DNA from: an uncultured Myxococcales bacterium
GTDB lineage: Bacteria; Myxococcota_A; SURF-8; CAYNVS01
Direction: 5' to 3'
Assembly: GCA_964400725.1 (NCBI GenBank)
Contig: CAYNVS010000001.1
Location: 43,191 to 107,190 of the forward strand
DNA length: 64,000 nt
Part shown: in pieces, positions 37,034 through 38,694 of the stretch
How the letters are laid out: every line of letters begins with the position of its first letter
Numbering within the stretch: position 1 is the first letter of the stretch
Made by a program: the position numbers and the translations under genes
Notes under the pieces: model-generated
The model's input: only the letters and a program-made list of their open reading frames with translations
Database searches by the model: none
What the model was told of the DNA's origin: nothing

Positions 37034-37720
37034 TCAATCTCCTTGAAGAAGCGTTCCGGGGTTCCAATCCTTCCAGATGGATTCGATTTTTTCCTCGGTA
37101 AGGTCTAGAAGCGAATCAATGCGGTAAGGCGCTCCCGCCTGATTGAAGCCGTATCTGTTTCCCGCTTTCACCGCGACGACCGCAGTTCCCGCGGCTACGC
37201 CCGCCGCTATTCCGATGGGAGAGTCTTCAACCGCCAGACAGCGGTGCGGCGAACATCCTAGAGCCTCCGCGGCGCGCAGGTAGCATTCGGGGTTCGGTTT
37301 ATGAAAGTTTACGTCGTCCCCGCCGATAATACATTTTACGTGTCCCGCGGCGTTCATGTGCGCCAAAAGGCGCTCGGCTTCCATTTTAAAGCTGCCGGTA
37401 ACAATCGCCAGACTGTAAGAGCGCGACAGAGAAGATAAAACTTCGCGGGCGCCAGGCAGAAGCGCCGGGCCGTTTTTGTCCATCATTTCTCTTTTAAGCT
37501 CAAGCGTTTCGTCTAGAAACTCGCGCGGCGATGGGAGGCCCTCAAAACGGTCGTAAAGAAACATGAGAACTTTGTCCCATGCGTTCTTAACCGTATATTC
37601 GCGCAGCTCGTCGGTCATTTTGCAGCCGCGCCTTTCAAGGCATTCGGCCAAAGCCGCCAATGTCGTTTCTTCCGAATCGATAAGCGTGCCGTCCATGTCG
37701 AACAAAATCGCTTTAAACAT
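37034..37720 (-). CDS. HAD-superfamily phosphatase (beta-PGM/Gph-like)
   Basis: FDMDGTLIDS, VTGS, KPNPECY and VEDSPIG motifs. Confidence 0.92.
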   Translation of the reverse strand: MFKAILFDMDGTLIDSEETTLAALAECLERRGCKMTDELREYTVKNAWDKVLMFLYDRFEGLPSPREFLDETLELKREMMDKNGPALLPGAREVLSSLSRSYSLAIVTGSFKMEAERLLAHMNAAGHVKCIIGGDDVNFHKPNPECYLRAAEALGCSPHRCLAVEDSPIGIAAGVAAGTAVVAVKAGNRYGFNQAGAPYRIDSLLDLTEEKIESIWKDWNPGTLLQGD

Positions 37721-38000
37721 CGTATTACATCCGCAATAAAAAAATCTGCCGGCGCGTTTAAATTTTTATCATAAAACTAATTTTGTGTATAGCGGTTCTT
37801 AAATAAAAGTTTTATCGCTTATTTTTTTTTGCGCGGACGGCTATTAAAGGAGCTATCGCCGCCTCGAAGTTGCGAGTTCGGAAAAACCTTGAGAGTTAAA
37901 TTCCCGAAGCTAGCGGATGCGAGGTTATTCTAACCTCTTAAAAATACGAAAAAAATTCGTTAATTCTGGCGAAAATATTGCGCATGAAGGCGATGGATAC

Positions 38001-38080
38001 AAAAAAAGGAAGGGAGGAAGCTAGGTATGCCACTTGGGGGGGGACGGTGGGAATCTAAAGGACGTGCTTCCTGCCCTTCC
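38001..38080 (-). ncRNA. Candidate ~80-nt small RNA with base-paired ends and a C8 loop
   Basis: Starts 6 nt after a TTGACA-17-TAGATT promoter. GGAAGGG-C-AGGAAGC pairs with GCUUCCU-CCCUUCC and is followed directly by U7. Inner hairpin CCAC/GUGG has a C8-containing loop. Confidence 0.6.
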
Positions 38081-38086
38081 GATTTC

Positions 38087-38115
38087 AATCTAACAACTAG
38101 TCGTTTTAATGTCAA
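38087..38115 (-). promoter_or_regulatory. Near-consensus sigma70 promoter driving the candidate sRNA
   Basis: Minus strand TTGACA (38115-38110), 17-nt spacer, TAGATT (38092-38087). Confidence 0.7.
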
Positions 38116-38217
38116 GTAAAAAGCGCTTTTTCTAACAAAGAACGCTTAAAAAAACGCCTTTAGAATTGTAATTTTCTCATATTGATACGCGAAATGAAAT
38201 TTTTAATGAACGAGCGC

Positions 38218-38694
38218 TCATTTGTATTCAATTTTGGTAATTTCAAACGTTCTTACGCCTCCGGGAGTTTGGATTTTCGCCTCCTCGCCTTCCTGTTTTG
38301 AAATGAGTCCGCGGGCGATGGGCGAGCTTATTGAAATCCATCCCTTGGAGATGTCCGCTTCGTCGTCGCCGACTATGCGGTAGGAGTATTCCTTGTCTTC
38401 GTCAACGTCCAAAATCGTAACGGTCGCTCCGAAAACTACTCGGTCAGACTTAATTTTGCTGACGTCTATAATTTGCGCCTTAGAAATTCTGGCTTCTAAA
38501 TCGCGGATGCGCGTTTCGATAAGTCCTTGTTTTTCCTTCGCATATTGGTACTCTGCGTTTTCGCTCAAGTCTCCGTGGGCGCGGGCGACTTCTATCTCGC
38601 GAATAATCTGCGGACGATCGACGCTCTTCATTCTGTTGAGTTCGTCCGTAATTTTTTTAAAGCCTTCGGGAGTGATAGGAATTTTGTCTGACAT
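38218..38694 (-). CDS. greA: Transcription elongation factor GreA
   Basis: ARAHGDLSENAEY..AKE.Q, V.FGATV and ISISSPIARGL. Confidence 0.96.
   Translation of the reverse strand: MSDKIPITPEGFKKITDELNRMKSVDRPQIIREIEVARAHGDLSENAEYQYAKEKQGLIETRIRDLEARISKAQIIDVSKIKSDRVVFGATVTILDVDEDKEYSYRIVGDDEADISKGWISISSPIARGLISKQEGEEAKIQTPGGVRTFEITKIEYK

What the first reader, a model, noticed from the sequence alone, without database searches (positions are those of the whole stretch)
38001..38115. Unannotated ~80-nt sRNA with its own promoter, paired ends, a bulged C and a C8 loop
Minus strand: TTGACA-17-TAGATT, then +1 at G38080. The transcript reads GGAAGGGCAGGAAGCACGUCCUUUAGAUUCCCACCGUCCCCCCCCAAGUGGCAUACCUAGCUUCCUCCCUUCC followed by U7. 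The 5' and 3' ends form 7 bp + bulged C + 7 bp, and an inner hairpin exposes CCCCCCCC. Promoter, structure and U-tail all agree and there is no ORF, so this looks like a stand-alone sRNA. C-rich loops are used by sRNAs such as S. aureus RNAIII to bind G-rich/SD targets. The end-paired stem with bulged C and U-tail also loosely recalls Y RNAs, but the Ro-binding sequence is absent.
Basis: partly seen in the sequence, partly recalled or inferred. Interest (0 to 1): 0.65.

Follow-up and report, generated by a model that had tools for sequence, protein, structure and literature searches.

The report
New multi-copy C-loop small RNA
The flagged stretch is a real-looking gene for an ~80-nt small RNA from a previously uncatalogued, multi-copy family in uncultivated bacteria; the family keeps an invariant cytosine-rich loop inside a freely changing stem and probably regulates other genes by pairing with G-rich RNA.

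Summary
On the minus strand there is TTGACA-17-TAGATT with a TGn extension, a 73-nt end-paired hairpin (38080..38008, -26.3 kcal/mol, z = -4.1) and a U7 tail.

It is not a one-off and not only the greA terminator. The core UCCCACCGU-C(7-9)-AAGUGGCA recurs with different flanks in several places:
- two more contigs that track this organism's depth in five metagenomes;
- the same site in a relative with 97% identical GreA;
- another site in a relative with 71% identical GreA;
- four metagenome contigs from other organisms;
- one metatranscriptome contig.

Most copies with readable flanks have a sigma-70-like promoter about 6-7 nt before the RNA. The full-length ones all have a closing helix of unrelated sequence that still pairs: cognate flanks -21 vs non-cognate -8 kcal/mol, 1 of 120 permutations.

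No Rfam family matches. Nothing similar was found in plasmids or phages. There is no conserved gene neighbour.

Best reading: a trans-acting sibling sRNA that uses its C-rich loop on G-rich mRNA sites, like 6C, sX13, cuckoo/CcsR or RepG. No target, transcription start or RNA size has been shown. The Y-RNA idea is not supported.

The parts
38110..38115 (-). -35 hexamer TTGACA, preceded by an A/T-rich, UP-element-like stretch
   Evidence: The same hexamer (TTGACA, TTGACT or TTGACC) sits at the equivalent place in L081, L083, L082, L084, L095, L097 and copy 2.
38087..38095 (-). Extended -10 element, TGT-TAGATT
   Evidence: The -10 hexamer is unchanged in the 97%-GreA relative L097, while the upstream spacer shows 17 changes in 102 nt. 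TAGATT is also the -10 in L081.
38008..38080 (-). Predicted 73-nt RNA body: P1a (38080-38074 with 38014-38008), bulged C at 38073, P1b (38072-38066 with 38021-38015), internal loop, and the P2 hairpin
   Evidence: Fold (z = -4.1). The closing helix is kept by compensatory change across the family.
38025..38060 (-). Family core, CUUUAGAUUCCCACCGUCCCCCCCCAAGUGGCAUAC. The invariant part is UCCCACCGU-C(7-9)-AAGUGGCA.
   Evidence: Alignment. nhmmer hits with E of 1e-10 to 1e-11 occur only at true copies. Metagenome contigs share this part alone.
38030..38050 (-). P2 hairpin CCAC/GUGG with the 13-nt loop CGU-C8-AA (C8 at 38036-38043); proposed target-binding site
   Evidence: The loop is unpaired in the predicted fold of every full-length member folded, and in both candidate folds of L095. 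The C-run is 7, 8 or 9 in different copies.
38001..38007 (-). U7 tail. Together with P1 it forms an intrinsic terminator, probably also for greA read-through.
   Evidence: U-rich tails also follow L082, L081, L083 and L084, but not L095 or copy 2.
38218..38694 (-). greA, the upstream gene on the same strand. This is context only, not part of the RNA.
   Evidence: The pdxS-pdxT-M42-greA order is kept in L095, but there no RNA follows greA.

Best explanation
Positions 38115-38001 (minus strand) hold an independent gene for a ~75-80-nt non-coding RNA. It is one of several sibling copies per genome of a conserved, uncatalogued family.

Proposed anatomy and action:
- A near-consensus sigma-70 promoter with an extended -10 starts transcription about 6-7 nt downstream of the -10, at or near G38080.
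- The RNA folds into a long closing helix whose sequence is free to change.
- This helix holds a conserved internal loop and a 4-bp hairpin (CCAC/GUGG).
- The hairpin presents an invariant, unpaired CGU-C(7-9)-AA loop.
- In this copy the closing helix plus U7 also serves as the intrinsic terminator.

The proposed action is in trans. The C-rich loop pairs with rare G-rich tracts in mRNAs, typically Shine-Dalgarno-proximal, and changes their translation or stability. This is how 6C, sX13, cuckoo/CcsR, RsaE and RepG work.

Shown here: the sequence, the fold, the conservation, the compensatory helix, the promoter-like hexamers placed just before the RNA, multiple copies, and transcription of one family member.

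Inferred only: the exact 5' end, the size, trans action, and the G-rich targets.
For: 1. Anatomy is verified.

2. The family is real. Pattern and HMM searches found the core at L081, L082, L083, L084, at L095 and L097, and nowhere else in about 720 kb of held DNA.

3. The promoter-like hexamers keep their place. They are followed by 6-7 nt and then the RNA in most copies: TTGACA-17-TAGATT (window, L081, L097), TTGACA-17-TACAGT (L083), TTGACT-18-TACACT (L082), and TTGACC-17-TACAAA (L095). Two fit less well: L084 (TTGACT-16-TATACT) has about 10 nt before its outer stem, and copy 2 (TTGACA-17-TAAAAA) has a start that cannot be placed.

4. In the 97%-GreA relative, the -35 hexamer, the -10 hexamer and the first 35 nt of the RNA have 0 changes. 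The only 2 changes lie in the promoter spacer, against 17 changes in the 102 nt just upstream.

5. The closing helices share no sequence but always pair. Cognate 5'/3' flanks give -21.2 kcal/mol and non-cognate flanks -8.1. Only 1 of 120 permutations is as good.

6. Several copies exist per genome. Extra contigs share only 38022-38086 or 38016-45, and their depths track the main locus in X1, X2, X4, X6 and X7.

7. The RNA is independent of its neighbours. It is absent after greA in L095 and absent before HAD in L091. It is convergent with the downstream gene in L081, L082, L083 and L084, and divergent from the upstream gene in L084.

8. A true metatranscriptome (X25) holds a 246-nt contig at depth 9.2 with the exact 50-nt type-B core and its own flanks.

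9. The loop is unpaired in every fold. G/C runs are strongly depleted in the window, so a C8 loop would be selective.

10. Published analogues exist. The C-rich loops of 6C bind G-rich ribosome-binding sites such as AGGGGGG (PMC6486639). Cuckoo RNAs keep only the loop motif while the stems change by compensatory mutation, and they occur in many copies (PMC4615179).
Against: There are no RNA reads for this organism. The only 'possibly RNA' run, X16, comes from a study that behaves like low-coverage DNA.

The X25 contig runs 139 nt upstream of the predicted start. It therefore shows transcription but not the ends.

No convincing target was found among 53 translation-initiation regions in the window (best -12.3 kcal/mol, inside the background distribution). 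No G5+ run lies near a start codon there.

The conserved block is about 36 nt and includes an internal loop. That is more than a seed needs, and it would also fit a protein-binding site.

Two copies (L095 and copy 2) lack a U-tail, so not all members are simple promoter-to-terminator units.

Confidence: 0.5

Rival explanations
1. It is a protein-binding or sequestering RNA. The invariant about 36-nt module (internal loop, CCAC/GUGG stem and poly-C loop) would be the docking site for a conserved protein, for example a KH-type poly(C) binder, a ribosomal or tRNA-handling protein, or another global regulator. The several copies would titrate that protein, as CsrB/RsmY do for CsrA.
For: The conserved block is longer than a typical seed. 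It includes non-Watson-Crick internal-loop positions that stay fixed (UUU.RA.UC on the 5' side, CA.A on the 3' side) across otherwise unrelated copies.

The near-consensus promoters with A/T-rich upstream tracts suggest high, constitutive expression.

No mRNA target was found in 64 kb.
Against: There is no conserved neighbouring protein gene at any locus.

C-run length varies between 7 and 9, which is tolerated more easily by base pairing in variable register than by a shaped protein pocket.

Known C-rich-loop sRNAs act by pairing (PMC6486639, PMC3771888).
Confidence: 0.2
2. It is a cis element only. The hairpin would simply be the intrinsic terminator of greA, or a 3'-UTR-derived fragment. 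The 'promoter' would instead drive a leader for the downstream HAD and gamma-carbonic-anhydrase genes, or for rplM in L095.
For: greA has no convincing terminator of its own. The weak hairpin at about 38160-38120 loses a pair in L097 without compensation. Read-through from greA would therefore stop at U7.

L095 and copy 2 lack U-tails, and the L095 copy lies 185 nt upstream of rplM on the same strand.

The X25 transcript contig extends upstream of the predicted start.
Against: The same core occurs after unrelated genes, convergent with its downstream genes and once divergent from its upstream gene.

It is missing after greA in L095 and before HAD in L091, where the proximal HAD leader is nevertheless conserved.

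A terminator does not need an invariant 36-nt core or its own promoter at a fixed distance.

rplM in L095 has its own TTGACA-17-TACACA promoter.
Confidence: 0.1
3. It is a mimic of a tRNA 3' end. The core reads like the 3' third of a tRNA: UU-N-R-A-N-U matches T-loop positions 54-60, CCCAC matches the T-stem 3' strand, CGUCCCC matches an acceptor 3' strand, and then C plus CCA follow in the C7 versions. The RNA could act as a decoy or substrate for a tRNA-recognising factor.
For: This is read directly from the sequences. The only variable core positions fall where T-loops vary: position 56, position 57 (G, or A in copy 2, so always a purine) and position 59 (G, U or A).
Against: The resemblance was noticed after the fact. 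ARAGORN and the Rfam tRNA and tmRNA models do not hit it.

The C-run varies from 7 to 9, which breaks any fixed acceptor/CCA register.

The GUGG partner lies 3' of the 'T-loop', so no true T-arm can form.

The two tRNAs seen in a relative, Pro and Val in L095, do not match.
Confidence: 0.07
4. It is a dispersed DNA repeat (REP- or MITE-like, or an attachment site) or a chance promoter-plus-terminator look-alike with no RNA function.
For: It is multi-copy, palindromic and intergenic. No direct RNA ends have been shown.
Against: Only the apical 36 nt are conserved, while the helix arms change in a compensating way. This is the signature of selection on RNA pairing, not of copied DNA.

The promoter-like hexamers keep a similar distance and orientation at most loci.

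No terminal repeats or transposase are present, and nothing similar is found in plasmids or phages. The viral-contig matches are chance hits inside coding DNA.
Confidence: 0.03

Closest known systems
Cuckoo / CcsR1-4 (RSs0680, SmelA075/A099) sRNAs of Alphaproteobacteria (PMC4615179, PMC8034643)
   Same: These are sibling sRNAs in several copies per genome. Only the pyrimidine-rich hairpin loop motif is conserved, while the stems are highly variable through compensatory mutations. They are thought to occlude G-rich, Shine-Dalgarno-like sequences. This matches the evolutionary pattern seen here.
   Different: The loop motif here is CGU-C(7-9)-AA, not CCUCCUCCC. There is one module per RNA, not 2-4 adjacent hairpins. 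An additional conserved internal loop is present. There is no DUF1127 gene link. There is no Rfam match. The host lineage is a different, uncultivated one.
6C RNA (B11/Mcr; Rfam 6C) of Actinobacteria (PMC6486639)
   Same: It is a short, stand-alone sRNA whose loops carry runs of six or more C. These runs pair directly with G-rich ribosome-binding sites (for example AGGGGGG of panD) without a chaperone. G-runs are depleted genome-wide, as they are in this window.
   Different: 6C has two C-loop hairpins and is single-copy in high-GC Gram-positives. Here there is one hairpin enclosed by a long closing helix, the RNA is multi-copy, and the hosts are probably diderm (lpxB lies beside the L084 copy). 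There is no covariance-model match.
sX13 (Xanthomonas; PMC3771888), RsaE/RoxS (PMC4409812), RNAIII hairpins (PMC2837412)
   Same: C-rich (CCCC/UCCC) apical loops serve as seeds for G-rich mRNA motifs at or near the ribosome-binding site.
   Different: These are unrelated in sequence and architecture, have several loops per RNA, and are not multi-copy. None is matched in Rfam.
RepG of Helicobacter pylori (PMC8295292)
   Same: It is an ~87-nt sRNA whose C/U-rich loop targets a homopolymeric G-repeat. The length of the repeat tunes regulation. A C7-9 loop would suit such G-tract targets.
   Different: The RepG loop is in its terminator hairpin, RepG is single-copy, and it is restricted to Helicobacter. 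No G-repeat target has been identified here.

Membership tests
Rfam 6C (C-rich two-hairpin sRNA of Actinobacteria) | Match to the family covariance model at or near the gathering score | tested here: not met
   There was no hit at gathering in the window or in six homologous loci. 6C did not appear even at E up to 10 on 37650-38300.
Rfam 6C | Two adjacent hairpins, each with a conserved C-rich loop | tested here: not met
   There is a single C-loop hairpin inside a closing helix in every full-length member folded.
Cuckoo / CcsR family | CCUCCUCCC loop motif in 2-4 adjacent hairpins | tested here: not met
   The loop is CGU-C(7-9)-AA, and there is one module per RNA.
Cuckoo / CcsR family | Conserved loop with stems varying by compensatory change, and several copies per genome (a behaviour, not a criterion for membership) | tested here: met
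   Cognate versus non-cognate flank pairing is -21.2 versus -8.1 kcal/mol, 1 of 120 permutations. Extra copies track the organism's depth.
Y RNA / bacterial Y-like RNA | Conserved Ro-binding helix with its bulged C, and a match to the Rfam Y RNA or YrlA models | tested here: not met
   There was no Rfam hit. The bulged C of the window copy is absent from the other members, and the helix sequence is not conserved.
tRNA / tmRNA / tRNA-like | Detection by ARAGORN or by the Rfam tRNA or tmRNA models; a cloverleaf or T-arm | tested here: not met
   There were no hits at the RNA in any locus. Only a linear resemblance to the T-loop, T-stem and acceptor 3' strand is seen.
Rho-independent terminator (as its only role) | GC-rich stem directly followed by a U-tract, with no other conserved content | tested here: inconclusive
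   A stem plus U-tract is present in the window, L082, L081, L083 and L084, but absent in L095 and copy 2. An invariant 36-nt core and an own promoter go beyond what a terminator needs.
Trans-acting base-pairing sRNA (general class) | Own primary 5' end, a discrete small transcript, and a demonstrated mRNA partner | not testable with these tools
   No RNA reads exist for this organism. Only one metatranscriptome contig covers a family member.

The most novel reading that the evidence does not exclude
The family may not be an mRNA-pairing regulator at all. It could be a highly expressed mimic of a tRNA 3' end: a circularly permuted T-arm whose 'acceptor strand plus CCA' is displayed as the poly-C loop. 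Several copies per genome would then decoy or feed a tRNA-recognising machine, such as a CCA-adding or repair enzyme, a tRNA-targeting nuclease or toxin, RNase P, or the ribosomal P or E site. This would occur in a set of uncultivated diderm bacteria.
Probability: 0.07. Interest if true: 0.8.

Novelty: new member of a known kind. Interest (0 to 1): 0.45.

Why it matters
Almost nothing is known about riboregulation in the uncultivated bacteria that populate anaerobic digesters, sediments and mats.

This is a clean, comparative-genomics-grade sRNA family. It has a promoter-like site before most copies, a covarying helix, an invariant loop and several copies per genome. It is absent from Rfam.

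Its loop, a run of 7-9 C, is the longest G/C homopolymer in 64 kb of a genome that otherwise avoids such runs. That implies a small and very specific set of G-tract targets, or a dedicated binding partner.

If the pairing model holds, it extends the 'C-rich loop meets G-rich ribosome-binding site' principle, and the sibling-sRNA pattern of cuckoo RNAs, to a new and distant lineage. It also gives a ready covariance-model seed for annotating metagenome-assembled genomes.

Tried and rejected
- **Rfam.** I ran gathering on the window, E up to 10 on the locus, and gathering on six homologous loci. Only two tRNAs in L095 were found.
- **Genome tools.** Copy number, a target search and a tRNA comparison in the genome were therefore impossible.
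- **Viral contigs.** Three matches were chance hits in coding DNA. Plasmids and phages gave no match.
- **RNA evidence for this organism.** X16 is the only candidate. Its study (X26-X29) behaves like low-coverage DNA, so I rejected it as evidence. The RNA-run search with L084 gave nothing.
- **Recovering copy 2 and copy 3.** I used RplM homologues of L095, which led to unrelated organisms: a Firmicute-type operon, a GC-rich lineage and others. L095 may not be used in read laying. L082 as a reference only re-found the window copy.
- **Target search.** Loop versus 53 translation-initiation regions gave nothing beyond background. G5+ runs near starts gave nothing in the window and only one anecdotal GGGGGAG Shine-Dalgarno sequence in L083.
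- **An alternative inner fold.** UUNG/CAAG plus CC/GG, as in the L095 minimum-free-energy fold, is not supported by the variation in other copies (and inspection).
- **A conserved small ORF.** This is rejected because of C-run length variation and unrelated flanks.
- **A link to HAD or greA.** This is rejected by L091 and L095.

Full report
**1. The observation**

Reading the minus strand gives this sequence of elements:
- TTGACA at 38115-38110.
- A 17-nt spacer ending in TGT, which provides the TG of an extended -10.
- TAGATT at 38092-38087.
- GAAATC.
- U7 at 38007..38001.

The promoter scan ranks this site best in the 2-kb surroundings, at 10 of 12 matches with TG.

RNAfold gives exactly the described shape: 7 bp, a bulged C, 7 bp, and an inner CCAC/GUGG hairpin with the 13-nt loop CGUCCCCCCCCAA. 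The energy is -26.3 kcal/mol against -16.0 +/- 2.5 for shuffles, z = -4.1.

A 51-codon TTG frame overlaps the region. It cannot be conserved, because homologues differ in C-run length and have unrelated flanks.

The C8 run is the only G/C homopolymer of 7 or more in 64 kb. G/C runs of 6 or more are about four-fold depleted, 4 against about 16 expected, while A/T runs are as expected.

No Rfam family matches. This holds at gathering score for the whole window, at E up to 10 for the locus, and for the homologous loci.

**2. It is one member of a family**

Contigs of public metagenomes were laid on the locus. Besides the contig that carries greA-RNA-HAD, they showed further contigs that share only the core:
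- Copy 2 matches 38022-38086 with 6 mismatches and one C fewer. Its upstream flank is TTGACAATACGCCCGATAAAATGTAAAAAA and its downstream flank is CGCTTCGCCCCTTCCCCTAAAAAG.
- Copy 3 shares 38016-38045 exactly and continues GGCCCTTCTCTTTTTAC.

The depths of these contigs follow the main locus in five independent samples. Copy 2 against the main locus gives 10.9/9.0 in X1, 6.3/5.5 in X2, 3.6/3.6 in X4, 4.1/3.5 in X6 and 2.4/3.4 in X7. Copy 3 is 8.3 against about 8.1-9.0 in X1 and was also seen in X5. The extra contigs therefore most likely lie in the same genome.

One pattern scan of JGI metagenome contigs with CCCACCGTCCCCCCC-N(0-2)-AAGTGG returned four loci from other organisms, L081-L084.

Protein-anchored look-ups then gave three further results:
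- L097, a relative with 97% identical GreA, has the RNA at the same place.
- L095, from an NCBI metagenome-assembled genome with 71% identical GreA, keeps the pdxS-pdxT-M42-greA order. Nothing lies after greA there. A copy sits elsewhere, 185 nt upstream of rplM-rpsI.
- L091, a relative with 88% identical HAD, has no RNA upstream of HAD, although the proximal HAD leader is conserved.

An HMM of the 36-nt core finds only these copies in about 720 kb of held DNA, with E of 1e-10 to 1e-11. Matches in viral contigs are chance hits in coding DNA. Plasmids and phages have nothing similar.

**3. What is conserved**

The invariant part is UCCCACCGU-C(7-9)-AAGUGGCA. It is flanked by nearly fixed internal-loop residues: UUU-(A/U)-(G/A)-A-(G/U/A)-UC on the 5' side and CA-(U/G)-A on the 3' side.

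Outside this block nothing is conserved in sequence, but three features recur.

(a) A sigma-70-like promoter precedes the RNA, by 6-7 nt in most copies:

| Copy | Promoter |
|---|---|
| window, L097, L081 | TTGACA-17-TAGATT |
| L083 | TTGACA-17-TACAGT |
| L082 | TTGACT-18-TACACT |
| L084 | TTGACT-16-TATACT |
| L095 | TTGACC-17-TACAAA |
| copy 2 | TTGACA-17-TAAAAA |

The gap is about 10 nt in L084, measured to its outer stem, and cannot be placed for copy 2. The L095 site fails the promoter scan because its -10 lacks the final T. The X25 variant has a TATAGT hexamer 6 nt before its core. Most copies also have an A/T-rich tract upstream of the -35.

(b) A closing helix exists in every copy but has unrelated sequence. 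Pairing each 5' flank with its own 3' flank gives a mean of -21.2 kcal/mol. Pairing it with the 3' flank of another member gives -8.1. Only the true assignment, 1 of 120 permutations, reaches the observed total. This is compensatory evolution of an RNA helix.

(c) A terminator is usually present. In the window and L082 the closing helix itself is followed by U-rich tails. L081 and L083 have a separate GC hairpin plus U-tail. L084 has an outer stem plus U-tail.

L095 and copy 2 are exceptions to (c). They lack a U-tract and share the downstream words AUAAAAUGUCU and CUAAAAAGUCU.

Between the window and L097, the 102 nt from the greA stop to the -35 carry 17 differences. From the -35 onward there are only 2, both in the promoter spacer. 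There are none in the hexamers, the discriminator or the first 35 nt of the RNA.

**4. Context**

The neighbours differ at every locus:
- greA and HAD/gamma-carbonic anhydrase in the window.
- An unknown 260-residue protein and rplM in L095.
- A FAD/Fe-S oxidoreductase upstream and a convergent radical-SAM gene downstream in L081 and L083.
- A divergent lpxB and a convergent HAMP/radical-SAM operon in L084.
- A convergent DUF167 gene in L082.

In four loci the RNA is convergent with whatever lies downstream, and in one it is divergent from what lies upstream. It therefore cannot generally be a leader or a 3' UTR. The lpxB neighbour suggests diderm hosts.

Exact taxonomy could not be established. 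The best GreA matches are about 60% identical, to Myxococcota and other delta-type metagenome-assembled genomes.

**5. Expression**

No run labelled as RNA holds the window copy. X16 is of unknown type. It carries a single 151-nt contig, 38005-38155, and nothing else from 10 kb. Its sister runs cover L081 patchily, like low-coverage DNA, so I do not count it as evidence.

A genuine metatranscriptome, X25, contains a 246-nt contig at depth 9.2. It has the exact 50-nt type-B core, its own TATAGT element and its own terminator-like hairpin. This shows that a family member is transcribed. The contig extends 139 nt upstream of the predicted start, so the ends are not defined.

**6. Mechanism**

The loop is unpaired in all predicted folds. 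The pattern is a conserved C-rich loop, stems free to vary, several sibling copies, and promoter-to-terminator units in most copies. This is the pattern of the cuckoo/CcsR RNAs (PMC4615179). The chemistry matches 6C, sX13, RsaE, RNAIII and RepG, which pair C-rich loops with G-rich mRNA tracts (PMC6486639, PMC3771888, PMC4409812, PMC2837412, PMC8295292).

I therefore favour a trans-acting sRNA that targets rare G-tracts. I could not find targets. Among the window's 53 translation-initiation regions the best duplex is -12.3 kcal/mol, inside the background distribution. No G5+ run lies near a start codon there. One GGGGGAG Shine-Dalgarno sequence, before the radical-SAM gene next to the L083 copy, is only an anecdote.

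The size of the conserved block leaves room for a protein-binding role. The hairpin very likely also stops greA read-through, because greA has no good terminator of its own.

**7. A resemblance noticed in passing**

The core reads like the 3' third of a tRNA. UU-N-R-A-N-U resembles a T-loop, CCCAC a T-stem strand and CGUCCCC an acceptor strand, followed by C plus CCA in the C7 forms. The family varies only at the positions where T-loops vary.

ARAGORN and Rfam do not support tRNA-likeness, the C-run length varies, and the partner strand is on the wrong side. I keep this as the low-probability novel reading.

**8. Verdict**

The feature is a new family within a known kind, C-rich-loop sibling sRNAs.

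Confidence is about 0.85 that it is a functional structured RNA gene family, and about 0.5 for the full statement including trans pairing with G-rich targets.

Interest is moderate. This is a well-supported, uncatalogued riboregulator of uncultivated bacteria. Its kind is familiar, and its targets, size and start site remain unproven.

This prevented the genome-wide copy count, the target search and the tRNA comparison.

Noticed in passing
window 38025-38060 (-), L082, L095, L081/L083/L084 cores: The invariant core resembles the 3' third of a tRNA: a T-loop-like UU-N-R-A-N-U, then CCCAC, then CGUCCCC, then C plus CCA in the C7 forms. Variation in the family falls only at the positions where T-loops vary (56, 57 as a purine, 59). 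tRNA finders do not support this.
   Followed up: partly
window 38120-38217 (-): greA has no convincing terminator of its own. The weak AAGCG...CGCUU hairpin before the sRNA promoter loses a pair in L097 without compensation. greA read-through probably ends at the sRNA hairpin and its U7 tail.
   Followed up: partly
L095 16400-16500 (-) and copy 2 of the window organism (flanks): These two family members lack a U-tail and share the downstream words AUAAAAUGUCU and CUAAAAAGUCU. The L095 copy lies 185 nt upstream of rplM-rpsI, which has its own TTGACA-17-TACACA promoter. They may be orthologues with a different 3'-end mechanism or a leader role.
   Followed up: partly
whole window: G and C homopolymer runs of 6 or more are about four-fold depleted (4 observed, about 16 expected), whereas A/T runs are as expected. 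The sRNA's C8 is the only G/C run of 7 or more.
   Followed up: yes
L081 17-838, L083 1217-2233, L084 6875-7927: In three type-B loci the RNA is convergent with a radical-SAM gene or operon. The N-terminal sequence (CxxCxxRC...) looks like the AmmeMemoRadiSam type. In L083 that gene has a GGGGGAG Shine-Dalgarno sequence. This could be lineage synteny or a hint at a target.
   Followed up: partly
window 37721-37810 (-) versus L091 480-565: The 85 nt just upstream of the HAD start (CGCTATACAC..ATTTTATGATAAAAA..GATTTTTTAT.GCGGATG) are conserved in the relative with 88% identical HAD, which has no sRNA or greA upstream. HAD therefore seems to have its own promoter and leader, independent of the sRNA.
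   Followed up: partly
window 38016-38045: This 30-mer is an assembly-graph junction in runs X1 and X5, where contigs break exactly there. The sRNA copies are long enough repeats to fragment short-read assemblies of this organism.
   Followed up: no
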